Positions 1 to 14,104 of a stretch of DNA of 64,000 nt are shown here, in pieces. A program made the translations under genes and the position numbers. Within the stretch, counting starts at the first letter, position 1. Each line of letters opens with the position of its first letter. Source of the stretch: Escherichia coli (GTDB lineage: Bacteria > Pseudomonadota > Gammaproteobacteria > Enterobacterales > Enterobacteriaceae); the NCBI RefSeq assembly GCF_030013205.1, contig NZ_CP122648.1. One strand, written 5' to 3'. The notes below the pieces were generated by a model. It made no database searches. It was not told where the DNA came from and saw only the letters and a list, made by a program, of their open reading frames with translations.

Positions 1-571
1 CGGTGACATCACGAGCAGAAACATCGCAGCCGCCAGTGGGCACCACCACATCATTATTGGCGTAAATATTCCACACAAACTGGAAATCATCGCTGTTATA
101 GTTGTTGGTCTGTCGCAAAATAAGCACGGCAATTAATGAGCCAGCTTTAATCACCACCCCGCCCGCACTGCTCACAGGCGTCAAATAAGGCGCCACCGGC
201 CACGGCTTATCCGTTCTCGAATTATAAACAACCCGCGGCGTTTCACTGGTGGTCGGAAATGGATAGCTACTGCCACTATATTTTACGGTCCCGGAAAAAT
301 TAGATAACACGCCGCCATAAGCCGAGCCTCGTTGCAGTGTGACATAATCTGTAATGGTTTCCGGGTAATCGTTATGGCAAAAGATTTGCGTCGAAAGATC
401 CACGACCAGGTTTTGCCCCACATTCACGGCGGGCGCAAGGTTTACATAAACATTGGCGCTGCCACCGCCAATAGGGATAGCGGTGCCATTGGCGGTTTTA
501 CAGGCGAATGACCAGGCATTTACCGACCAGCCCATCAGCAGTACAGCAAACAGGTTAATAACTCGTTTCAT
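1..571 (-). CDS. fimH: Type 1 fimbrial mannose-binding adhesin FimH, 5' part only (gene continues past the left window edge)
   Basis: Reverse translation from the ATG at 571-569 reads MKRVITLFAVLLMGWSVNAWSFACKTANGTAIPIGGGSANVYVNLAPAVNVGQNLVVDL..., which I recognise as the FimH signal peptide plus lectin domain. It follows fimG in the canonical fim order. It is absent from the ORF track because it is open at the edge. Confidence 0.93.
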   Translation of the reverse strand, partial: MKRVINLFAVLLMGWSVNAWSFACKTANGTAIPIGGGSANVYVNLAPAVNVGQNLVVDLSTQIFCHNDYPETITDYVTLQRGSAYGGVLSNFSGTVKYSGSSYPFPTTSETPRVVYNSRTDKPWPVAPYLTPVSSAGGVVIKAGSLIAVLILRQTNNYNSDDFQFVWNIYANNDVVVPTGGCDVSARDVT

Positions 572-590
572 TACAATCATCTCTTCGGCT

Positions 591-1094
591 TCAGCTGTAG
601 GTATAGGTGATGCTAATCACTGCCTGAATGGTTCCCTGAGTGGCTCCGCCATTTACCGTCAATGCTCTGACCTGTAACGGGAAGTGCGCTGATTGTGAGG
701 AATCATCCACCTGAACTGTTTTGGTTGCGCCACTATTCAATGTGTTGCCACTGTCATCCTGTAGCTCTAACTGGATGTTTTGCGCGGTCCCCTGGTTTTT
801 ATAATATCCGGTACTGTCGGCTGCCCCGCTGAAGCTGGCAGTGACCCTCGACGTTCCCACCGGACAATTAGTCAACTCAAGCGCAACATCATGCCAGGCC
901 GATGCCGCCCCGGCAGACATCAGACTGAAAGAATAAAGATCGCCGAGATCTACCGTGGCATTGGTGGTGGAAACCGTGCACGGTTTGGCGACGACCTTAC
1001 CGTTCACCGTGATGGTGACATCGGCTGCCTGTATCGTCGCACTTGCGAGCGCCAATATTGCCGCCAATACATACCCACGTTTGCACCATTTCAT
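591..1094 (-). CDS. fimG: Minor type 1 fimbrial subunit FimG
   Basis: 167-aa ORF with a signal peptide (MKWCKRGYVLAAILALASATIQA) and a pilin-like C terminus. It lies between fimF and fimH. Confidence 0.93.
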   Translation of the reverse strand: MKWCKRGYVLAAILALASATIQAADVTITVNGKVVAKPCTVSTTNATVDLGDLYSFSLMSAGAASAWHDVALELTNCPVGTSRVTASFSGAADSTGYYKNQGTAQNIQLELQDDSGNTLNSGATKTVQVDDSSQSAHFPLQVRALTVNGGATQGTIQAVISITYTYS

Positions 1095-1106
1095 GAGCCT
1101 CTCCAG

Positions 1107-1637
1107 TTACTGATATTCAAGAGTGAAGGTAGCCGTGGCATTGATATGCCCCGCAGTGACAGGCACCTGTGTCGCCATTAGCCGGGCGTAAAAATTCAGC
1201 GTATTTGGTTTACCCGGCGTCAGGGTCGTCCACGAAATCGCGGACGATGGGGCATTAATGGGTATCTGATTTTGTTGCTCATTCAGAAGCTGTATTCCCA
1301 GTCCCGCAACCGCTGACACCGTATTTTCAAGTGCAAGCAGGTTGGCATTGTGGCTATCTGCAACACCGGTAAACCCAACTTTTACGGCAGAAACGGCATT
1401 ACCACAGGGTGACAGCAAAATACGAAATGGAACGACAGGAGTCGTCGCGCCAATGTTGTTAAATTGCTTCGCCGCGTTTTCCATCAGATCAACAGTAAAA
1501 TTGGTTGATTCAGCGGCCACACTACAGCCGTTATCTCTGACATAGCCGCGGATAGTAATCGTGCTATCCGCAGCCAAAGCGTGACTTACCGCCAGCCACA
1601 AAAAAGCGCACAGAAGATAAAAAGGTTTGTTTCTCAT
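1107..1637 (-). CDS. fimF: Minor type 1 fimbrial subunit FimF
   Basis: The ORF 1107-1640 reads [23 protein letters not shown].... As I recall it, K-12 FimF starts at the second Met (MRNKPFYLL). Confidence 0.92.
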
Positions 1638-1646
1638 CACGCCCCC

Positions 1647-4283
1647 TTAACGACATTCAGCTGATAGCTGAGTTAATAACTGCTGCTGACTCTCTGGTGG
1701 CAGTTGATAATTGGCGACACAGTGAGCATTTTCCTCTTCTCCCCATTTCACCTGAACTTTTCCCGCTAAAGGCATTCCGCTGAGGTAAACCTGACCATTA
1801 TCCGCAACAATGCCGCTACTCTGGCTACTCTCTGATGTCACCATCGCCCCAAACGGCAGCGGCTTATTATTGTGGGTTAGCGTCATGAGCAGTTTTATCC
1901 CAACGCGCGCTTTAAACTCTGCTCGCACGATCGCCCCACGGGTGGGAACAACGTTAGCGACCGCGTTATCTAAATCGACGTTATCAGCCAGGGTATTGGT
2001 ATCCAGCGCTACTCTGTTCTCCCGATATTCAGTGGCATAAGGCAGCACGGCATAACCGCGCCAGTCGGTACGCACCCCCGTCTGGTTTTCGACTTTTGCA
2101 TCTTTTGCGCCAGGCGCTTTAACAAGCACCACCGTATCGTTTAACGGCTGCCCCAGCGTTACGCCATTGGCATGAGCCAGTACCCCACCGCTGACTCCGT
2201 AATAGAGCTGCTTAATATCATCGCTATGGCTGTAACCGATGTTGGCATTGCCGTAACCACCGCGATAATTCAGCGTGGCGTAGCCTGTACTTCCGCTATT
2301 ACCATCACCTCCCCCGGCGTAACCGGTTTGCACGCTATAGCTGAGGTTGTTGTCTTCCAGCAACGTACCGTATACACCGACCAGATTGGTCATCCGACCG
2401 TTGAGATCGTGTGACATGCTGTAACTGGCACTGGCATGTCGCCACTGAGATTTACTGTCAGAACGCAGCCAGTGGCTGAAAGGAATATTGACGTTAAGCG
2501 CTAACATCTGATCCCGTCCTTTTTGCCAGGCGTTTTTCGTCAGGCTATAGCTGAGCGTCCAGTTGATATCTTCGAATGCAGTATTTAAACCAGCCTGGAA
2601 TTGCTCATCGACATTACTCGTTCCCCAATAAGTTTGATGGCTACCACTCAAATACAGTGTTGATGTGCGCCCGAGTTGCTGAGTAACGGTGAGTTGTAAT
2701 TTCCCGCGTTTGTTATAAGCGAGATTGTAATAGTCGGTGAATTTCGGCTTAACCTGAATAACACCATCCTGTGTTTCGATGTTGTAGCCATTCATTCGAC
2801 TGTATGTTGTATCAGCGAAATTAAAATATCCGCTGGTCGAATAACGGTAACCCACTAACTGAATATTCGTGCCTGATTCATTGAGCGATTTGTTATAGAG
2901 AAAACGCACCGATTGTCCGTCATGCTGACTGTCATCGGGAAGTGTGGAATTAGCCTGCGTCATATCCACAGACAGAGCGCCCAGTGCCCCCATGTTTTTC
3001 CCGATACCGAAATTAAACGCACGATAACGATCCGCCAGTTGCGTTCCACCATATATTGTCCAGCCAGCCGGAAGGCCGTGGAGTAATGTACTCTGGAAAA
3101 AGCGGGGTTTTTCCTGCTGCGCATTTCCACTACGGTATTCTCCTGCCGTAATGGAATAACGAGTATGCCCTTCACGTTGCAAAAGCGGGACTGACGAATA
3201 GGGTACGGTAAAGATCTGCGTGCTGCCGTCAGCCTCTTTAATCGTTACCTGCAAGTCACCACTATTACCTGCGGCATAGATATCGTTGATGGTAAAAGGC
3301 CCCGGCGGCACCGTACTATTATAAATGTCATACCCATTTTGTTTAATAGTGACCTGTGCAGTACCACGAGCAATACCGTGGATCACCGGAGCAAATCCTC
3401 TTTGGCTATCGGGTAACATATTGTCATCTGAGGCCAATTGTGCGCCGCGAAAGTTAATACCATCGAAAATATCGCCCTGGGTATAACCATCACCCAGCGT
3501 CAGCCGGGAACGTAACGGAATTATGTCTCGCTCAAGCCAGGTATTGATATGCTGCCATTTATTTTTGCTACCTGATGAACTGTCGCTACTGTTATAACTC
3601 CAGGTGGTATTGTCGCGTAAACGCCACGCACCAATATTTAACCCACTCTGTAGGTTTAAATATGCATAATGGCTGTTACCCCCAATCCGATTCTGTACAC
3701 TATTTCCGCTGAAATTATAATTGAGCAATCCGGCATTAATACCAGGATCCCATAACTCAGGAGGAATATAACCACGCGCGCGATTACTCATAAATGCCTG
3801 AGGGATCGTCAGGTTGAGTCGCTGCTGACCAACATCCAGATGCGCAGTAGCGTCATGGATCATTGAGGTTAATGGCACGCAGGCATCATCCGCCAGCAGA
3901 TTCATACCGGAGACAGAAGCCGTATTCAGCTCCATACTTGCAAGTTGCGCGCGTGTCAGGCAGGGAACAATCCCTTGTTCACTGTCGCCCGTATTAAATG
4001 TGACATCACGCGTTGCCATATAACCATTATTCAAATAGATATCGACACGATACGTCCCTGGCGGTAATTCTTGCCCATTTTCAAAACGCGATAAATCGGC
4101 CACAGCCTGGGGATCATCCGCTAAAAAGCGCGGATTAAAATAGAGTTCGGCAGATGACAAAGGTGCCTGTGCGGCAAAAGCACAGGCGACAAAGAGCCGG
4201 ACAAAAAAACCAGCCAAACGATGCTTACGAATATGCAAGCATTGTGTGTTTCGCTGGTAAAGTCTTAAATTCAGATATGACAT
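1647..4283 (-). CDS. fimD: Outer membrane usher FimD
   Basis: 878-aa ORF typical of chaperone-usher ushers (MSYLNLRLYQRNTQCLHIRKHRLAGFF...). It lies between fimC and fimF. Confidence 0.95.
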   Translation of the reverse strand: MSYLNLRLYQRNTQCLHIRKHRLAGFFVRLFVACAFAAQAPLSSAELYFNPRFLADDPQAVADLSRFENGQELPPGTYRVDIYLNNGYMATRDVTFNTGDSEQGIVPCLTRAQLASMELNTASVSGMNLLADDACVPLTSMIHDATAHLDVGQQRLNLTIPQAFMSNRARGYIPPELWDPGINAGLLNYNFSGNSVQNRIGGNSHYAYLNLQSGLNIGAWRLRDNTTWSYNSSDSSSGSKNKWQHINTWLERDIIPLRSRLTLGDGYTQGDIFDGINFRGAQLASDDNMLPDSQRGFAPVIHGIARGTAQVTIKQNGYDIYNSTVPPGPFTINDIYAAGNSGDLQVTIKEADGSTQIFTVPYSSVPLLQREGHTRYSITAGEYRSGNAQQEKPRFFQSTLLHGLPAGWTIYGGTQLADRYRAFNFGIGKNMGALGALSVDMTQANSTLPDDSQHDGQSVRFLYNKSLNESGTNIQLVGYRYSTSGYFNFADTTYSRMNGYNIETQDGVIQVKPKFTDYYNLAYNKRGKLQLTVTQQLGRTSTLYLSGSHQTYWGTSNVDEQFQAGLNTAFEDINWTLSYSLTKNAWQKGRDQMLALNVNIPFSHWLRSDSKSQWRHASASYSMSHDLNGRMTNLVGVYGTLLEDNNLSYSVQTGYAGGGDGNSGSTGYATLNYRGGYGNANIGYSHSDDIKQLYYGVSGGVLAHANGVTLGQPLNDTVVLVKAPGAKDAKVENQTGVRTDWRGYAVLPYATEYRENRVALDTNTLADNVDLDNAVANVVPTRGAIVRAEFKARVGIKLLMTLTHNNKPLPFGAMVTSESSQSSGIVADNGQVYLSGMPLAGKVQVKWGEEENAHCVANYQLPPESQQQLLTQLSAECR

Positions 4284-4349: not shown

Positions 4350-5075
4350 TTATTCCATTACGCCCGTCATTTTGGGGGTAAGTGCGCCATAATCATTTAT
4401 TGTTCGGTAAGTAATATTGCTTCCTGCATCAGAAGGCAATTTAACCGTGCTTTCGCCCATTGGAGGCACCAATGCATTTTCAAGAACCCGGGTTCCGGCA
4501 TTCAACTCTGTTACCGTCAGGTAATAGGGTGTCGGGTTAATCAGAGTCAGAGAATTCGCGCTACGACGAAATCTTAATTTTTCTGCGGCCTGATCGGGTG
4601 GCAACGCTAATTTAGCCGGGCGATAGTACAGTTTAATGCGGCTGATAATTGCGAGCTGTAGCGTATTCTCAGTCAATTTTGATTTATCCATTGACGGAAT
4701 CGCTTTAACGTTCATCCAGAATAAACTTTCCCGATCCTGTGGCAATTGGTTATTTGTTGCATCAAGAATACGTAAGGTATTCTCTTTTTTTCCCTTCATC
4801 GCAAACAGAGGTGGCGTCACGATAAAACGACCATCCTTTACACCATCGGCATTTTCCACCCATGATTGAATTAAATAGGTGCTATTTTCATCATTATTTG
4901 TCACGGCAAGTTGCACTTGTTTTTGCCCTGCCGGATAAATTACGCGAGTCGCACCTAAGGCCACTCCCGCTTCGGCGCGTCCGGCAACCATCATTGCCAT
5001 GAACATCAGGATACCTGCCAGCAAGCAGAATGTTATTTCCTGCGATTTCCTTACATTGACGTTTTTATTACTCAC
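4350..5075 (-). CDS. fimC: Periplasmic fimbrial chaperone FimC
   Basis: 241-aa ORF with PapD-like chaperone motifs (GVALGATRVIYPAGQKQVQLAVTNND...). Its position fits the operon order. Confidence 0.95.
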   Translation of the reverse strand: MSNKNVNVRKSQEITFCLLAGILMFMAMMVAGRAEAGVALGATRVIYPAGQKQVQLAVTNNDENSTYLIQSWVENADGVKDGRFIVTPPLFAMKGKKENTLRILDATNNQLPQDRESLFWMNVKAIPSMDKSKLTENTLQLAIISRIKLYYRPAKLALPPDQAAEKLRFRRSANSLTLINPTPYYLTVTELNAGTRVLENALVPPMGESTVKLPSDAGSNITYRTINDYGALTPKMTGVME

Positions 5076-7824: not shown

Positions 7825-8427
7825 CTATAAAACAGCGTGACGCTGTCGTCCTCTGGCCCTATCCCAGATGCCGTAAAAACGCCCTGCATTGCTGGCGGTA
7901 TACCAGACAGTATGACGAATATTGCGATGCCCAAGATAATCCTGGATAAGTCGCGTATCTATTCCCATATTCGCCAAAGCAAAACCACACGAATGGCGTA
8001 ACATGTGCGGATGAATCTCCAGTGACAACCCGGCATTACCACCGGAAGTCGAGATAATATGGTAAAACTGTTGCCGAGAAAGCGGATTCCCCTTACGCGA
8101 TAAAAATACCCATTCGCTCTCAGCATGCGGGTACGAAGTACGGATACTCAACCAGTTTTTTAAAGCCTGAACTTCTTTGTTCAATAGCGGGTGCGTTGTT
8201 GAAAAGCCTTTTTTTAATCGATGGATATAGATACACTTTGCCTTAAGATCAATATCCGAAATCCTCAATCGACAAATTTCACTCGCCCGGAAACCATGAA
8301 TAAAACAAAGCAAAGTCAGACAATAATTACGTGCTGCATGAGGCCCGGTATTTGCTGCTTTAAGGAGTGATTCGATTTCACTATGGGTCAGGAAGTTCCT
8401 TTTTTTGTTATCAGCCTTATTCTTCAT
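7825..8427 (-). CDS. fimB: Tyrosine recombinase FimB (bidirectional switching)
   Basis: 200-aa ORF MKNKADNKKRNFLTHSEIESLLKAANTG... that is paralogous to FimE (HMLRHSCG, LGHRNIRHTVWYT). Confidence 0.95.
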   Translation of the reverse strand: MKNKADNKKRNFLTHSEIESLLKAANTGPHAARNYCLTLLCFIHGFRASEICRLRISDIDLKAKCIYIHRLKKGFSTTHPLLNKEVQALKNWLSIRTSYPHAESEWVFLSRKGNPLSRQQFYHIISTSGGNAGLSLEIHPHMLRHSCGFALANMGIDTRLIQDYLGHRNIRHTVWYTASNAGRFYGIWDRARGRQRHAVL

Positions 8428-9440
8428 CGTTTTCCCTTATAATTACAGACGCGCACTAGCTGTGCTGGGTTAGCAATAATCCAACATTTTAATCCTGATT
8501 ATGTTTATAAAAGCGAACGTTTGCTTAATAACTAACGTAAGTGGACCAGTTCTTCTGAGTGAACTTAAATGGAGTAGCGATAGTTACTTATAATAACTTT
8601 GCCATACAAACGCCATGCTCTTGCATGCTATGTACCTTTATATATTTATAAATCTGATACGAATCGAATAATAACCCTCATCATTAATGCAACTAATCTT
8701 ATCTATATATCATGTGATATGTTCTGTAACAAGTAAAATCAACATAAAAAATTCAGCAAAATTTAATATTCGTTCAACTAGCCGTCTCACATATGACATT
8801 ATTAGTCAACTGCATTTGCCACAAAATGGCTATTTCATGGAACGCAGTAATTTCTTAGTGGCTATTATCATGCTAATTCTTAGATCCCTAGCGATTATTC
8901 CTGCCTGGTTCGTCAGCTTAGGCCATGAGATTGTTACATTCCCTTTTATCCTGGAGATATGGGGGAACGCAGGCGACGCTTTTTCATCTACATCCGTTGG
9001 TAACTATGGCTTTGGTCACTACGACTTAAACCTTCCTCAATCACAGCTATTCGCCGGGCGATACGGCAAACAAACTAAGTGAAACATCATCCTGAAAACA
9101 CCAACATCAACAAGCCTCTCCAGATCGACATCAGGAGTGACCAGTTACAAGCCACAAACCAAGAAACATATTTCATGATGAGAATTATACTCAGCCTGAT
9201 GGCGGGTAAACACTTATTTTCACCAAGCTCACTGAGTTAGCTTGCAAAGCTTTCTTTGTTTAGATTCTAAATAAATTATTTACAAAACAGATTGTTAAAA
9301 GAAAACCTTTAGTTTTTGAAGACCAATGCAAGTGTTCGTCTGGCTTCACATGGCATCTGCTTCTTAGGAAAAGATCGACATATTTTGTGACACGAATTGC
9401 AAATCTGGTTTTGTTGTATGGATTGCGTGATTTTTGATCT

Positions 9441-9463
9441 GGTATAACAGGTATAAAGGTGCA
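9441..9463. promoter_or_regulatory. NanR operator-like GGTATA repeat array in the fimB-nanC intergenic region
   Basis: GGTATAACAGGTATAAAGGTGCA contains two exact and one degenerate GGTATA hexamer. The spacing is what I recall for NanR operators. Confidence 0.65.
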
Positions 9464-9721
9464 CCGCGATAGTCAATGAGACTGGGCATCTCGTAATCTA
9501 TGGCAAACATCACTTCAGTTCTTTCTCATCGGGTGATGAAAACGCACTTCAGTCTGAAAGGAATATGAAAATGAGATCAACAGACACTCTATTTTATGAC
9601 TCTGGGTAAAATGGATTGAGTAAGCGATATTAGACTGGCCCCCTGAATCTCCAGACAACCAGTATCACTTAAATAAGTGATAGTCTTAATACTAGTTTTT
9701 AGACTAGTCATTGGAGAACAG

Positions 9722-10087
9722 ATGATTGATGTCTTAGGGCCGGAGAAACGCAGACGGCGTACCACACAGGAAAAGATCGCAATTGTTCAGCAGAGCTTTG
9801 AACCGGGGATGACGGTCTCCCTCGTTGCCCGGCAACATGGTGTAGCAGCCAGCCAGTTATTTCTCTGGCGTAAGCAATACCAGGAAGGAAGTCTTACTGC
9901 TGTCGCCGCCGGAGAACAGGTTGTTCCTGCCTCTGAACTTGCTGCCGCCATGAAGCAGATTAAAGAACTCCAGCGCCTGCTCGGCAAGAAAACGATGGAA
10001 AATGAACTCCTCAAAGAAGCCGTTGAATATGGACGGGCAAAAAAGTGGATAGCGCACGCGCCCTTATTGCCCGGGGATGGGGAGTAA
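9722..10087 (+). CDS. insC: IS2 OrfA (InsC) transposase regulator
   Basis: [53 protein letters not shown]... with an HTH and a leucine zipper. The ATG follows a GGAG RBS, and the track ORF starts further upstream at a GTG. Confidence 0.9.
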
Positions 10088-10950
10088 GCTTAGTCAGCCG
10101 TTGTCTCCGGGTGTCGCGTGCGCAGTTGCACGTCATTCTCAGACGAACCGATGACTGGATGGATGGCCGCCGCAGTCGTCACACTGATGATACGGATGTG
10201 CTTCTCCGTATACACCATGTTATCGGAGAGCTGCCCACGTATGGTTATCGTCGGGTATGGGCGCTGCTTCGCAGACAGGCAGAACTTGATGGTATGCCTG
10301 CGATCAATGCCAAACGTGTTTACCGGATCATGCGCCAGAATGCGCTGTTGCTTGAGCGAAAACCTGCTGTACCGCCATCGAAACGGGCACATACAGGCAG
10401 AGTGGCCGTGAAAGAAAGCAATCAGCGATGGTGCTCTGACGGGTTCGAGTTCTGCTGTGATAACGGAGAGAGACTGCGTGTCACGTTCGCGCTGGACTGC
10501 TGTGATCGTGAGGCACTGCACTGGGCGGTGACTACCGGCGGCTTCAACAGTGAAACAGTACAGGACGTCATGCTGGGAGCGGTGGAACGCCGCTTCGGCA
10601 ACGATCTTCCGTCGTCTCCAGTGGAGTGGCTGACGGATAATGGTTCATGCTACCGGGCTAATGAAACACGCCAGTTCGCCCGGATGTTGGGACTTGAACC
10701 GAAGAACACGGCGGTGCGGAGTCCGGAGAGTAACGGAATAGCAGAGAGCTTCGTGAAAACGATAAAGCGTGACTACATCAGTATCATGCCCAAACCAGAC
10801 GGGTTAACGGCAGCAAAGAACCTTGCAGAGGCGTTCGAGCATTATAACGAATGGCATCCGCATAGTGCGCTGGGTTATCGCTCGCCACGGGAATATCTGC
10901 GGCAGCGGGCCTGTAATGGGTTAAGTGATAACAGATGTCTGGAAATATAG
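10045..10950 (+). CDS. insD: IS2 OrfB (InsD) DDE transposase
   Basis: 301-aa ORF overlapping insC in the -1 frame. It has DDE/RNase H-like motifs (WCSDGFEF..., LTDNGSCY..., NGIAESF). Confidence 0.9.
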
Positions 10951-11216
10951 GGGCAAATCCAGATATAGCTTACGAAAATTCAAATCAATTAAACATCAGC
11001 AGAGATTTTATACTCAGGTATTTAATCTGGCCCTCTGTTTATTTAAATAATGTGGAAAGAGATTTTTCACAGGAGATATTATACAAAAAATATAAAATAC
11101 AGCTACCGGTTGCCAAAGACACTATAAGCCTGGCAAAAAAATATTACACAACATAAATGCTAATTGTTTATGCGGGCTTTGTATTGCTTTCTGTATCCTA
11201 CAAATGAGTGAAATTT

Positions 11217-11933
11217 ATGAAAAAGGCTAAAATACTTTCTAGCGTATTATTACTGTGCTTTTCGTCCCCATTAATTTCTCAGGCTGCGACACTGGACGTA
11301 CGTGGTGGATATCGTAGTGGAAGCCACGCCTATGAGACTCGACTCAAAGTCAGTGAGGGATGGCAAAATGGATGGTGGGCAAGCATGGAAAGTAATACCT
11401 GGAATACCATTCATGATAATAAAAAGGAAAATGCCGCACTCAATGATGTTCAGGTTGAAGTTAATTACGCGATTAAACTTGATGATCAATGGACGGTGCG
11501 CCCGGGAATGTTAACGCATTTTAGCAGCAATGGCACACGCTACGGACCCTACGTAAAACTGTCCTGGGACGCGACAAAAGATCTTAATTTTGGCATTCGC
11601 TATCGTTACGACTGGAAAGCTTACCGACAACAAGACTTATCTGGTGATATGTCTCGTGATAACGTTCATCGTTGGGATGGATATGTCACTTACCATATTA
11701 ATAGTGATTTCACCTTCGCATGGCAAACGACGCTATACAGTAAACAGAACGATTATCGCTATGCAAACCATAAGAAATGGGCGACGGAAAATGCATTTGT
11801 TCTACAATACCATATGACGCCCGATATTACGCCATACATAGAATATGACTACCTTGACCGTCAGGGTGTTTACAACGGCAGAGATAATTTATCGGAAAAC
11901 AGTTATCGCATTGGTGTGTCATTTAAACTGTAG
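11217..11933 (+). CDS. nanC: N-acetylneuraminic acid-inducible outer membrane channel NanC
   Basis: MKKAKILSSVLLLCFSSPLISQAATLDVRGGYRSGSHAYETRLKVSEGW... ending ...SYRIGVSFKL (KdgM-family porin). It lies upstream of nanM and nanS. Confidence 0.92.
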   Translation: MKKAKILSSVLLLCFSSPLISQAATLDVRGGYRSGSHAYETRLKVSEGWQNGWWASMESNTWNTIHDNKKENAALNDVQVEVNYAIKLDDQWTVRPGMLTHFSSNGTRYGPYVKLSWDATKDLNFGIRYRYDWKAYRQQDLSGDMSRDNVHRWDGYVTYHINSDFTFAWQTTLYSKQNDYRYANHKKWATENAFVLQYHMTPDITPYIEYDYLDRQGVYNGRDNLSENSYRIGVSFKL

Positions 11934-11952: not shown

Positions 11953-13059
11953 ATGAATAAAACAATAACGGCGCTTACTATCATAATGGCTTCATTTGCC
12001 GCAAACGCGTCTGTATTACCGGAAACTCCTGTGCCATTTAAAAGTGGTACCGGAGCAATTGATAACGACACTGTCTACATTGGTTTAGGTAGCGCAGGTA
12101 CGGCATGGTACAAGCTGGATACACAGGCCAAAGATAAAAGATGGACAGCGTTAGCTGCATTCCCTGGCGGACCGAGAGATCAAGCAACCTCTGCATTTAT
12201 TGATGGCAATCTGTATGTGTTTGGCGGCATTGGCAAAAACAGCGAGGGCTTGACTCAGGTATTTAATGACGTACACAAATACAACCCCAAAACCAATAGC
12301 TGGGTTAAATTGATGTCGCACGCGCCGATGGGCATGGCGGGCCATGTGACTTTTGTACACAACGGCAAGGCTTATGTTACTGGCGGTGTTAACCAGAATA
12401 TCTTCAATGGCTATTTTGAAGATCTCAACGAAGCTGGAAAAGATTCAACCGCTATAGATAAAATCAACGCCTACTATTTTGACAAAAAAGCAGAAGATTA
12501 TTTCTTCAATAAGTTTCTGTTGTCTTTTGATCCCTCAACACAGCAATGGAGTTACGCTGGCGAATCTCCCTGGTACGGAACGGCTGGTGCGGCGGTTGTG
12601 AATAAAGGTGATAAAACCTGGCTTATTAATGGCGAAGCCAAACCAGGATTGCGAACGGATGCCGTATTTGAACTTGACTTCACCGGTGATAATTTAAAAT
12701 GGAATAAGCTTGATCCCGTCTCATCACCAGATGGCGTCGCTGGCGGTTTTGCGGGGATAAGCAATGATTCTCTTATATTTGCTGGAGGGGCCGGATTCAA
12801 AGGTTCACGAGAAAATTACCAGAACGGTAAGAACTATGCGCATGAAGGCCTGAAAAAATCATATAGCGTTGATATTCATCTTTGGTATAACGGGAAATGG
12901 GATAAATCGGGTGAATTATCGCAAGGTCGGGCCTACGGAGTATCATTGCCCTGGAATAATAGTTTATTAATTATTGGCGGTGAAACTGCAGGCGGCAAAG
13001 CAGTGATGGATTCAGTTTTAATTTCTGTGAAGGATAATAAAGTCACAGTACAAAACTAA
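11953..13059 (+). CDS. nanM: N-acetylneuraminate mutarotase NanM (Kelch-repeat)
   Basis: An internal ATG after the RBS GGAGACAG gives MNKTITALTIIMASFAANASVLPETPVPFKSGTGAIDNDTVYIGLG..., 368 aa. The track ORF begins upstream, inside the nanC end. Confidence 0.92.
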   Translation: MNKTITALTIIMASFAANASVLPETPVPFKSGTGAIDNDTVYIGLGSAGTAWYKLDTQAKDKRWTALAAFPGGPRDQATSAFIDGNLYVFGGIGKNSEGLTQVFNDVHKYNPKTNSWVKLMSHAPMGMAGHVTFVHNGKAYVTGGVNQNIFNGYFEDLNEAGKDSTAIDKINAYYFDKKAEDYFFNKFLLSFDPSTQQWSYAGESPWYGTAGAAVVNKGDKTWLINGEAKPGLRTDAVFELDFTGDNLKWNKLDPVSSPDGVAGGFAGISNDSLIFAGGAGFKGSRENYQNGKNYAHEGLKKSYSVDIHLWYNGKWDKSGELSQGRAYGVSLPWNNSLLIIGGETAGGKAVMDSVLISVKDNKVTVQN

Positions 13060-13123: not shown

Positions 13124-14104
13124 ATGAACGCAATAATATCGCCTGATTATTACTATATTCTTACCGTTGCTGGTCAGTCTAATGCCATGGCGTATGGCGA
13201 AGGACTGCCATTACCGGACAGGGAAGATGCGCCTCATCCCAGAATTAAACAATTAGCGAGATTTGCGCATACGCATCCCGGAGGCCCGTCATGTCACTTT
13301 AACGACATTATTCCACTGACTCACTGCCCACACGATGTTCAGGATATGCAGGGTTATCACCATCCTCTGGCAACGAATCATCAAACACAGTACGGCACCG
13401 TTGGCCAGGCACTGCATATAGCACGGAAATTACTGCCCTTTATTCCTGATAATGCAGGGGTTCTCATCGTTCCGTGTTGCCGTGGCGGATCGGCTTTTAC
13501 CGCGGGCAGCGAAGGAACATATTCAGAACGGCACGGAGCCAGCCATGATGCTTGTCGTTGGGGAACGGATACTCCGCTATACCAGGATTTAGTCAGCAGA
13601 ACGCGAGCCGCACTGGCAAAAAATCCGCATAACAAATTCCTCGGCGTATGCTGGATGCAAGGCGAATTTGACTTAATGACCAGTGACTACGCGTCACACC
13701 CTCAACACTTTAATCATATGGTTGAAGCCTTTCGTAGGGATCTAAAACAATACCATTCTCAGCTTAATAATATTACTGACGCACCGTGGTTTTGCGGCGA
13801 TACCACCTGGTACTGGAAAGAAAATTTCCCTCATGCGTATGAAGTTATTTATGGCAATTATCAAAATAATGTTTTAGCCAATATTATTTTCGTCGACTTC
13901 CAGCAACAAGGTGAAAGAGGACTGACGAACGCGCCTGATGAAGACCCGGACGATTTAAGCACGGGATATTACGGTTCAGCGTACCGGTCACCGGAGAACT
14001 GGACGACGGCACTGCGAAGCAGTCATTTCAGCACGGCAGCCCGTCGGGGGATTATTTCTGACAAGTTTGTAGAAGCAATTTTGCAGTTTTGGCGCGAAAG
14101 GTGA
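13124..14104 (+). CDS. nanS: 9-O-acetyl-N-acetylneuraminate esterase NanS
   Basis: MNAIISPDYYYILTVAGQSNAMAYGEGLPLPDRED... ending ...FVEAILQFWRER. It is the third gene of nanCMS. Confidence 0.92.
   Translation: MNAIISPDYYYILTVAGQSNAMAYGEGLPLPDREDAPHPRIKQLARFAHTHPGGPSCHFNDIIPLTHCPHDVQDMQGYHHPLATNHQTQYGTVGQALHIARKLLPFIPDNAGVLIVPCCRGGSAFTAGSEGTYSERHGASHDACRWGTDTPLYQDLVSRTRAALAKNPHNKFLGVCWMQGEFDLMTSDYASHPQHFNHMVEAFRRDLKQYHSQLNNITDAPWFCGDTTWYWKENFPHAYEVIYGNYQNNVLANIIFVDFQQQGERGLTNAPDEDPDDLSTGYYGSAYRSPENWTTALRSSHFSTAARRGIISDKFVEAILQFWRER

What the first reader, a model, noticed from the sequence alone, without database searches (positions are those of the whole stretch)
9441..11217. IS2 insertion splits the shared fimB-nanC regulatory region, separating the NanR operator from nanC
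A complete IS2 (9631-10961, TSD GATAT) lies 168 bp from the GGTATA-repeat NanR operator-like sequence (9441-9463) and 255 bp upstream of the nanC ATG. From the literature as I recall it, the distant NanR/NagC sites near the nanC promoter control both nanC and, at long range, fimB expression and hence type 1 fimbrial phase switching in response to sialic acid and GlcNAc. The insertion probably uncouples nanCMS from its native promoter and operator. It leaves the operator on the fimB side, and IS2 reads in the same direction as nanC.
Basis: partly seen in the sequence, partly recalled or inferred. Interest (0 to 1): 0.55.

Follow-up and report, generated by a model that had tools for sequence, protein, structure and literature searches.

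The report
IS2 inserted in nanC leader
A complete IS2 mobile element sits in the untranslated leader of the sialic-acid porin operon nanCMS in a pig-associated E. coli lineage; this is an ordinary kind of event at a spot IS2 hits repeatedly, and its effect on nanC and fimB expression is untested.

Summary
An intact 1331-bp IS2 (9631-10961) with a 5-bp duplication GATAT lies 167 nt past the NanR operator (9441-9463) and 255 nt before the nanC ATG (11217). It reads in the same direction as nanC. K-12 and about 5040 of 5426 complete E. coli genomes have the uninterrupted site. This exact allele occurs only in 7 porcine ETEC genomes.

All known operators (ONR, ONC1, ONC2) stay on the fimB side. 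So does the predicted nanC promoter, inferred from an ~80-bp promoter-operator module that nanC shares with nanA and nanX. IS2 therefore interrupts the transcribed ~426-nt nanC leader. It does not split the regulatory sites from one another.

"Uncoupling" is not shown. In this orientation IS2 has no terminator-like sites and no C-rich, G-poor tracts. No usable hybrid promoter forms at the junction. Attenuated read-through is as plausible as silencing.

New here: the nanC leader and coding sequence are a recurrent IS2 target, with at least 14 independent intergenic events. The same GATATA palindrome centre was hit three times.

This is an ordinary IS insertion at an IS2 hotspot, of modest interest.

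The parts
7825..8427 (-). fimB (intact, 200 aa)
   Evidence: ORF; annotated as fimB, WP_000790583.1, at identical coordinates in ETEC4067.
9169..9191 (.). NagC operator ONC2 (published 'fimB2' site; outermost base G>A relative to K-12)
   Evidence: Site sequence from PMC3098098 located.
9379..9401 (.). NagC operator ONC1 ('fimB1' site). It overlaps a CRP-like site TGTGA-N6-TTGCA at 9386-9401.
   Evidence: Site sequence from PMC3098098; sequence. The CRP-like match and its spacing are my inference.
9436..9439 (.). Dam site GATC abutting the NanR operator
   Evidence: GATC sites next to NanR boxes are discussed in PMC5155068.
9441..9463 (+). NanR operator ONR: GGTATA-ACA-GGTATA-AA-GGTGCA
   Evidence: Identical to K-12. 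About 755 bp upstream of the inferred fimB start, matching 'around 760' in PMC3173223.
9443..9455 (+). Predicted nanC promoter: -10 TATAAC (9443-9448) and start near 9455
   Evidence: Inference from the module shared with nanA and nanX and from the CRP-like site centred at -61.5. Not experimentally verified here.
9455..9630 (+). Proximal part of the nanC 5' leader (176 nt), now separated from the rest
   Evidence: the native leader totals 426 nt, 35% G+C.
9626..9630 (.). Left copy of the target-site duplication GATAT
9631..10961 (+). IS2, complete, 1331 bp (IRL 9631-9672, IRR 10921-10961)
9722..10087 (+). IS2 insA/orfA (121 aa, HTH_Tnp_1); A6G slippery site near 10040
   Evidence: programmed frameshift annotated.
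10045..10950 (+). IS2 orfB frame (rve integrase core)
10962..10966 (.). Right copy of the target-site duplication GATAT
10967..11216 (+). Distal part of the nanC leader (250 nt)
11217..11933 (+). nanC, intact (237/238 identical to K-12)
11953..13059 (+). nanM, intact (358/368 identical to K-12)
13124..14104 (+). nanS, intact (318/326 identical to K-12), although PGAP calls it a partial pseudogene

Best explanation
**What it is (shown).** A transposition-competent-looking IS2 (IS3 family) inserted, with a 5-bp duplication, into the AT-rich 5' leader of the nanCMS operon. The allele is inherited by a clonal group of porcine enterotoxigenic E. coli.

**Where it sits (shown plus inferred).** The insertion point is about 176 nt downstream of the predicted nanC transcription start and 255 nt upstream of the nanC start codon. 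The predicted promoter overlaps the NanR operator and has the NagC and CRP-like site at -61.5. The whole control module (ONC2, ONC1/CRP-like site, ONR, predicted nanC promoter) stays intact and contiguous with fimB. NanR/NagC activation of fimB should therefore be unchanged (inferred).

**Effect on nanCMS (inferred).** nanC, nanM and nanS are intact. Their leader is lengthened from about 426 nt to about 1.76 kb by a co-oriented IS2. The most likely consequence is reduced and partly deregulated nanCMS expression. Any expression would come from read-through of the NanR-controlled promoter and of IS2's own weak promoter, not from a new hybrid promoter.

**Why here (shown).** The nanC leader and coding sequence are a preferred, repeatedly used IS2 target. 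The element landed at the centre of a short palindrome, GTAAGC-GATATA-GCTTAC, which has been hit independently three times. Loss of nanC is evidently tolerated in nature.
For: - **Structure.** Ends, TSD, ORFs and domains are confirmed. The empty site is present in K-12.
- **Empty site in the population.** It is uninterrupted in 5040 of 5426 genomes. Two strains (89-3156 and 361) have 100% identical flanks without IS2.
- **Lineage.** The exact junctions occur only in K_EC180 and ETEC4067/4069/4070/4071/4079/1748.
- **Operators.** ONC1 and ONC2 sequences come from PMC3098098. [quoted passage not shown] All lie left of 9463.
- **Promoter position.** The nanA, nanC and nanX upstream regions align from the CRP-like site through the operator and diverge immediately after it. 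The nanX ATG is also about 410 nt past its operator. PMC8012715 places the operator within the promoter region. RNA polymerase SELEX peaks in the spacer lie near the operators and near fimB, and none lies next to the nanC ATG (my coordinate conversion).
- **Coding integrity.** NanC, NanM and NanS are intact.
- **No hybrid promoter.** The IRR -35 candidate TGGAAA (10940-10945) plus 17 nt gives ATATAG. Pjunc-type promoters require exactly a 17-nt spacer (PMC3299598). The consensus scan finds nothing at the junction. The right 150 bp of IS2 has no detectable promoter activity (PMC12095673).
- **Read-through is possible.** There are no terminator-like sites and no C-rich, G-poor windows in the sense direction.
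- **Hotspot.** At least 14 independent IS2 or IS2-like insertions lie in the spacer, and three sites are reused. Uniform-insertion simulation gives P about 5e-6 for that reuse. The same query design gives 17 and 17 genomes for the two orientations at nanC, against 2 and 0 genomes at two control regions. IS2 prefers curved DNA. IS2 or other mobile-element insertions in nanC are reported in PMC7858067 and bioRxiv 10.1101/527788.
Against: - The nanC transcription start was not verified. The primary papers (Condemine 2005, Sohanpal 2004 and 2007, Kalivoda 2013) are not in the library.
[quoted passage not shown] That fits a nearby promoter but is not a mapped start.
- No expression data exist for this allele.
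- The rut criterion is crude.
- PMC12095673 reports that a promoter must lie within 150 bp of the end of an IS3-type backbone to drive a reporter. This argues for stronger polarity than I assume.
- Classical reports describe both polar IS2 insertions and activating ones (reference titles; which orientation does which is my recollection).
- OmpR and CpxR sites for nanC are said to exist (from memory). I could not place them, and they could lie on either side of the insertion.
Confidence: 0.6

Rival explanations
1. Polar block. IS2 stops essentially all transcription coming from the nanC promoter, so nanCMS is silent in this lineage. This would be a functional knockout equivalent to the IS2 insertions found inside the nanC coding sequence.
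For: - IS2 insertions are classically polar (gal::IS2, rho-dependent; reference listed).
- In an IS3-type backbone a promoter must be within 150 bp of the end to drive a reporter (PMC12095673).
- About 860 nt of orfB is poorly translated after the insA stop (inference).
- Leader insertions in the predicted polar (antisense) orientation and insertions in the coding sequence are equally common in other strains, so nanC loss is tolerated.
Against: - In the sense orientation there are no terminator-like sites.
- There are no C-rich, G-poor windows in the sense direction, whereas the antisense strand has about 30.
- nanC, nanM and nanS show no decay.
Confidence: 0.25
2. IS2-driven expression. The co-oriented IS2 supplies transcription of nanCMS through an outward or hybrid promoter at IRR, or through its own P(IRL). 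Expression would be constitutive and independent of NanR, NagC and CRP.
For: - IRR carries an outward -35, and IS2 is known to make fusion promoters (ampC, acrEF, neoR; PMC9330008).
- IRR faces nanC.
- A chimeric ORF (10935-11156) crosses the junction.
Against: - At the mandatory 17-nt spacing the -10 would be ATATAG. The 16-nt and 18-nt alternatives (GATATA, TATAGC) lack the conserved final T.
- No promoter-like site is found at the junction.
- The right 150 bp of IS2 had no detectable promoter activity.
- P(IRL) is weak and repressed by OrfA (PMC3299598).
- Other leader insertions show no bias towards this orientation: 5 sense against 7 antisense.
Confidence: 0.12
3. The nanC promoter is proximal, downstream of the insertion. 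IS2 then only removes the distal NanR, NagC and CRP sites, giving unregulated nanC from its own promoter.
For: - One promoter-like match lies in the distal leader (TGGAAA-18-TATTAT, 11053-11082).
- The nanC start could not be checked in the primary literature.
Against: - That match is at chance level: 3 found against 3.2 expected.
- The operator sits in a promoter module homologous to the nanA promoter, where NanR covers the promoter (nanA mapping from memory of Kalivoda 2003).
- nanX has the same layout of operator followed by a long leader.
- A simple GntR-type repressor acting from 420 bp away is unlikely (general knowledge).
Confidence: 0.06
4. The insertion mainly matters for fimB. It changes local topology, H-NS spreading or divergent transcription, and so alters sialic-acid and GlcNAc control of type 1 fimbrial switching.
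For: The mechanism of long-range activation by NanR and NagC is not settled. The spacer is AT-rich (36% G+C) and H-NS-bound near fimB (PMC3173223). IS2 is 53% G+C.
Against: - All three operators are intact and at least 167 bp from the insertion.
- From memory of the Sohanpal 2007 abstract, sequences up to 820 bp beyond ONR on the nanC side are not needed for activation.
- No leftward promoter-like site is found at the IS2 left end.
Confidence: 0.1

Closest known systems
IS2 (IS3 family) of E. coli
   Same: - Length 1331 bp, imperfect IRL and IRR of 42 and 41 bp, and a 5-bp target duplication.
- orfA (HTH) and orfB (rve) with an A6G -1 frameshift.
- At least 99% identical to thousands of IS2 copies.
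   Different: Nothing structural. This is simply a new location.
K-12 nanC-fimB intergenic control region (ONR, ONC1, ONC2; Blomfield and Plumbridge work)
   Same: - Operator sequences and order are the same as in K-12.
[quoted passage not shown]
- The adjacent GATC sites are present.
   Different: - The leader between the operator and nanC carries IS2.
- ONC2 has one outer-base change.
IS2 fusion-promoter activations (ampC, Jaurin & Normark 1983; acrEF; neoR)
   Same: IRR, with its outward -35, faces the downstream gene.
   Different: - No acceptable -10 lies at a 17-nt spacing in the flank.
- The junction is 255 nt from the gene.
- There is no evidence of activation.
Polar IS2 insertions (gal::IS2)
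   Same: IS2 lies between a promoter and its structural genes.
   Different: - Here transcription enters in the transposase-sense direction.
- That direction lacks C-rich, G-poor tracts, which are abundant on the other strand.
IS2 and other mobile-element insertions into nanC reported in evolution and population studies
   Same: The same gene is targeted by the same element: a fixed IS2 insertion in nanC in long-term stationary phase (PMC7858067), and mobile-element insertions in nanC in clinical collections (bioRxiv 10.1101/527788).
   Different: Those reports place the insertions in nanC itself ('into the nanC' channel gene). This one is in the leader and leaves the gene intact.

Membership tests
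IS2 (IS3 family insertion sequence) | About 1.33 kb element bounded by imperfect terminal inverted repeats (IRL 42 bp, IRR 41 bp) | tested here: met
   The element is 1331 bp. The inverted repeat pair has arms at 9620-9672 and 10921-10973. The IRL 30-mer is unique in the window. IR lengths are from PMC3299598.
IS2 (IS3 family insertion sequence) | 5-bp direct target-site duplication, present once at the empty site | tested here: met
   GATAT lies on both sides. K-12 and 5040 genomes carry the uninterrupted site.
IS2 (IS3 family insertion sequence) | orfA (HTH) and orfB (DDE/rve) in the 0 and -1 frames, joined by programmed frameshifting | tested here: met
   HTH_Tnp_1 E=1.8e-19, rve E=1.1e-18. 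The frames overlap at 10045-10087 with an A6G site. RefSeq annotates a 'programmed frameshift'.
IS2 (IS3 family insertion sequence) | Near-identity to reference IS2 copies | tested here: met
   Thousands of records have at least 99% identity to the IS2 half of the query and are annotated as IS2 family transposase.
NanR operator (Nan box) | Three tandem GGTATA-type hexamers spaced by 2-3 nt | tested here: met
   GGTATA-ACA-GGTATA-AA-GGTGCA. The third repeat is degenerate, exactly as in K-12 nanC, whereas nanA and nanX have GGTATA. The definition is from PMC8012715 and PMC3658417.
NanR operator (Nan box) | NanR binding and Neu5Ac-responsive control | not testable with these tools
   NanR binding to the nanC/fimB spacer in K-12 is reported by SELEX (PMC5934670). 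The sequence here is identical.
nanC promoter located at the operator (sialoregulon promoter-operator module) | Shared module upstream of nanA, nanC and nanX: a CRP-like site, a spacer, then the operator containing a -10-like hexamer | tested here: met
   In alignment A1, 51 invariant columns run from the CRP-like site through the operator, and the sequences diverge after it.
nanC promoter located at the operator (sialoregulon promoter-operator module) | Experimentally mapped transcription start at the module | not tested
   The primary papers are not held. No TSS dataset was consulted.
IS-generated hybrid (fusion) promoter | Outward -35 in IRR followed at 17 nt by a functional -10 in flanking DNA | tested here: not met
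   TGGAAA plus 17 nt gives ATATAG. The 16-nt and 18-nt options lack the final T. The scan finds no site there.
Rho-dependent polar IS insertion | C-rich, G-poor untranslated RNA in the direction of incoming transcription | tested here: not met
   No 78-nt window with C/G >= 1.5 occurs in the sense direction, and many occur in the antisense direction. The criterion is crude, so this is weak evidence.

The most novel reading that the evidence does not exclude
The nanC leader and gene are not just a passive IS2 hotspot. They may be a convergently selected target, where repeated IS2 hits in unrelated lineages, in either orientation, in the leader or in the coding sequence, reflect selection to lower NanC porin levels. 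Possible pressures are aminoglycoside entry, as a preprint's association suggests, or phage or colicin pressure. In this particular allele a further possibility is that the Neu5Ac, GlcNAc and cAMP-responsive nanC promoter now transcribes into IS2. That would make IS2 transposase expression, and hence genome plasticity, responsive to host sialic acid.
Probability: 0.15. Interest if true: 0.55.

Novelty: new member of a known kind. Interest (0 to 1): 0.3.

Why it matters
If IS2 really lowers or deregulates nanCMS, this porcine ETEC lineage would take up and process sialic acids differently. NanC is the porin, NanM the mutarotase and NanS the O-acetyl esterase. Sialic-acid and GlcNAc control of type 1 fimbrial switching through fimB would remain intact.

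Natural IS2-free alleles with identical flanks exist, so the comparison is easy to make.

The broader point is that the nanC leader and gene are hit again and again by IS2 at a few exact positions. That makes the locus a convenient natural system for separating target-site preference from selection against an outer-membrane channel.

None of this changes what is known about IS2 or about the NanR/NagC system.

Tried and rejected
- **Primary literature for the nanC start.** I tried to read Condemine 2005 (PMC1064066), Sohanpal 2004 (PMC526197), Sohanpal 2007 (DOI) and Kalivoda 2013 (PMC3807447). None is held. The promoter position therefore rests on sequence comparison and secondary statements.\n- **Hybrid promoter at the IS2 right junction.** Rejected on spacing and sequence.\n- **Intrinsic terminators in or around IS2.** None found.\n- **Rho-utilisation-like tracts.** None in the relevant direction. 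Not used as evidence.\n- **Decay of nanS suggested by RefSeq annotation.** Rejected; the ORF is full length and 98% identical to K-12 NanS.\n- **fimC frameshift seen in K_EC180.** Not present in the window, where the ORF is 241 aa.\n- **Chance explanation for site reuse.** Rejected by simulation and by two control regions.\n- **Technical note.** Fetched loci reached the Python sandbox only one per call, so the mapping was done from alignment A2.
Full report
**Observation**

The window carries fimB on the minus strand (7825-8427) and nanC on the plus strand (ATG at 11217). Between them lie the native ~1.45-kb spacer and a 1331-bp insert.

- The insert runs from 9631 (TAGACTGGCCCCCTGAATCTCC...) to 10961 (...TATAGGGGCAAATCCA).
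- It has imperfect terminal inverted repeats.
- It is flanked by GATAT at 9626-9630 and at 10962-10966.
- K-12 MG1655 has a single copy of this sequence at the homologous position (gagtaagtGATATAgcttacg). The element is therefore a clean transposition with a 5-bp duplication.
- Its two overlapping frames carry HTH_Tnp_1 and rve domains.
- RefSeq annotates identical coordinates in strain ETEC4067 as an IS2 transposase with a programmed frameshift.
- Thousands of E. coli records hold copies at least 99% identical.

The GGTATA-repeat sequence at 9441-9463 is identical to the K-12 nanC-fimB NanR operator and is unique in the window.

**Placing the known regulatory sites**

The published NagC sites 'fimB1' and 'fimB2' (PMC3098098) map to 9379-9401 (ONC1) and 9169-9191 (ONC2).

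The SlyA site named in PMC3173223 maps to about 8866-8877. That puts the fimB start near 8695 and the NanR operator about 755 bp upstream of it. [quoted passage not shown]

Every known operator is therefore on the fimB side of the insertion. The nearest one is 167 nt away from it.

**Where the nanC promoter is**

The primary mapping papers are not in the library, so I used sequence comparison.

- The regions upstream of nanA, nanC and nanX in K-12 share an ~80-bp module. It runs from a CRP-like site (TGTGA-N6-T.GCA) through TGGATTGC and GATC to the operator GGTATAACAGGTATAAAGGT. The three sequences diverge immediately after the operator.
- In nanA the start codon follows about 50 nt later. In nanC and nanX it follows about 420 and 410 nt later.
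- If TATAAC (9443-9448), inside the operator, is the -10, the CRP-like site is centred at exactly -61.5 and the start is near 9455.
- This fits the statement that the operator lies within the promoter region (PMC8012715).
- It also fits RNA polymerase SELEX peaks, which fall near the operators and near fimB but not beside the nanC ATG (PMC5493296; my coordinate conversion).

I conclude, as an inference, that IS2 lies inside the transcribed nanC leader, about 176 nt after the start. It does not lie between regulatory sites. 'Splits the shared regulatory region' is therefore imprecise. 'Separates the operator and promoter from nanC' is correct.

**Likely consequence**

nanC, nanM and nanS are intact, at 99%, 97% and 98% identity to K-12. 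What changes is the leader, which grows from 426 nt (35% G+C) to about 1.76 kb.

*A new junction promoter is unlikely.*

- The outward -35 candidate in IRR (TGGAAA, 10940-10945) followed by the mandatory 17 nt gives ATATAG. The neighbouring spacings lack the conserved final T (the 17-nt requirement is from PMC3299598).
- The consensus scan finds nothing at the junction.
- The right 150 bp of IS2 had no detectable promoter activity in a reporter study (PMC12095673).

*A complete polar block is also not clearly predicted.*

- There are no terminator-like sites.
- No C-rich, G-poor windows occur in the transposase-sense direction, while the opposite strand has about thirty.
- Against this, a promoter had to be within 150 bp of the end of an IS3-type backbone to drive a reporter.
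- Most of orfB is also poorly translated, which favours termination (inference).

My best estimate is attenuated, partly deregulated nanCMS expression with the fimB control module untouched. Full silencing is the main rival. None of this can be settled without RNA data.

**Distribution**

- The empty site is present in 5040 of 5426 complete genomes. Two strains have 100% identical flanks without IS2.
- The exact junctions occur only in seven porcine ETEC genomes from Belgium and Korea. This is a lineage marker.

**A recurrent target**

Searching with flank-plus-IS2 composites in both orientations found about 17 genomes each with IS2 or IS2-like elements in the nanC leader or gene. More were found on the fimB side. 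Mapping 16 loci gave at least 14 independent intergenic events, each with its own 5-bp duplication.

Three positions are reused:

- **GATATA:** the window (GATAT, sense), TOK-001 (ATATA, sense) and GPEC1176 (ATATA, antisense).
- **GACAC:** NDM2, against S30 and M10, whose elements differ by 4%.
- **GAGAT:** Eco_23-2667 (sense) and WS4437A-1 (antisense).

Uniform insertion gives this much reuse with P about 5e-6.

The same query design returns only 2 genomes for fimE-fimS-fimA and 0 for ahr-yjgR.

The window's site is the centre of an imperfect palindrome, GTAAGC-GATATA-GCTTAC.

IS2 is reported to prefer intrinsically curved targets. IS2 or other mobile-element insertions in nanC have been seen in long-term culture evolution and in clinical collections.

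Orientation is unbiased among leader insertions (5 sense, 7 antisense), and about nine further genomes carry the element inside nanC. Loss of nanC is evidently tolerated, and there is no sign of selection for promoter donation.

**Verdict**

This is a new instance of a well-known kind of event: an IS2 insertion in a long AT-rich leader, at an IS2 hotspot. It is of modest interest, mainly as a natural allele for testing nanCMS regulation and as part of a recurrent IS2-nanC pattern.

Noticed in passing
window 9620-9636 and 10956-10973 (native sequence GTAAGCGATATAGCTTAC): The IS2 target is the centre of an imperfect palindrome with 6-bp arms. The same 6-bp centre, GATATA, was hit independently in TOK-001 (L004, TSD ATATA, same orientation) and in GPEC1176 (L005, TSD ATATA, inverted).
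   Followed up: yes
Loci L007-L019 (nanC-fimB spacers of other E. coli); window-equivalent 9000-11930: - At least 14 independent IS2 or IS2-like insertions lie in the nanC-fimB spacer, and about 9 more lie inside nanC.
- The sites GACAC and GAGAT are each used twice.
- The same query design gives 2 and 0 genomes at two control regions.
- This is an apparent IS2 hotspot, or recurrent selection against nanC.
   Followed up: partly
L016 (3CM), L017 (HCP8S3_I1), L018 (MSB1_1D); window-equivalent about 9005-9025: These strains carry an IS2-like element between ONC2 and the fimB promoter. All NanR and NagC operators are thereby moved 1.3 kb further from fimB. These alleles, not the window's, are the ones that could uncouple fimB from sialic-acid and GlcNAc control.
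   Followed up: partly
window 13124-14104 (nanS): RefSeq/PGAP annotates only 13346-13690 as a partial 'sialate O-acetylesterase' pseudogene in ETEC4067, K_EC180, 3CM and others. The ORF is in fact full length and 318/326 identical to K-12 NanS, so this is probably an annotation artefact.
   Followed up: yes
window 10935-11156 (+): A chimeric 73-codon ORF starts inside the IS2 right inverted repeat and runs into the nanC leader. It is annotated as a hypothetical protein (WP_192297456.1). It is probably spurious, but if translated it could shield read-through RNA.
   Followed up: no
K-12 L006 3560-4059 (nanX upstream), L003 3577-3700 (nanA upstream), window 9380-9463: nanA, nanC and nanX share a duplicated ~80-bp promoter-operator module. 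nanC and nanX both have leaders of about 410-420 nt with no Rfam match. The function of these long leaders is unexplained.
   Followed up: partly
L004 (TOK-001), L009 (ECONIH5), L015 (WS4437A-1), L007 (NDM2): Several strains with IS2 near nanC also have IS1 next to or replacing fimB, fimE or the fim structural genes. The whole fim-nan junction is a zone of IS activity.
   Followed up: no
window 9631-10961, both strands: IS2 is strongly strand-asymmetric for C-rich, G-poor (rut-like) tracts. There are none in the transposase-sense RNA and about 30 windows in the antisense RNA. This matches my recollection of the classical reports that IS2 polarity depends on orientation.
   Followed up: partly
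window 14000-40400: Downstream of nanS lie island remnants (HNH endonuclease, antirestriction protein, DUF932), then fecIRABCDE, IS30 and IS3 fragments, an integrase and tRNA-Leu. This is a leuX-associated island, and it lacks nanXY (yjhBC) in this strain.
   Followed up: no
L001 (K_EC180) 1022-1746: fimC is annotated as frameshifted in K_EC180 but is intact in the window (4350-5075) and in ETEC4067. The cause is either an assembly error or a strain-specific mutation.
   Followed up: partly
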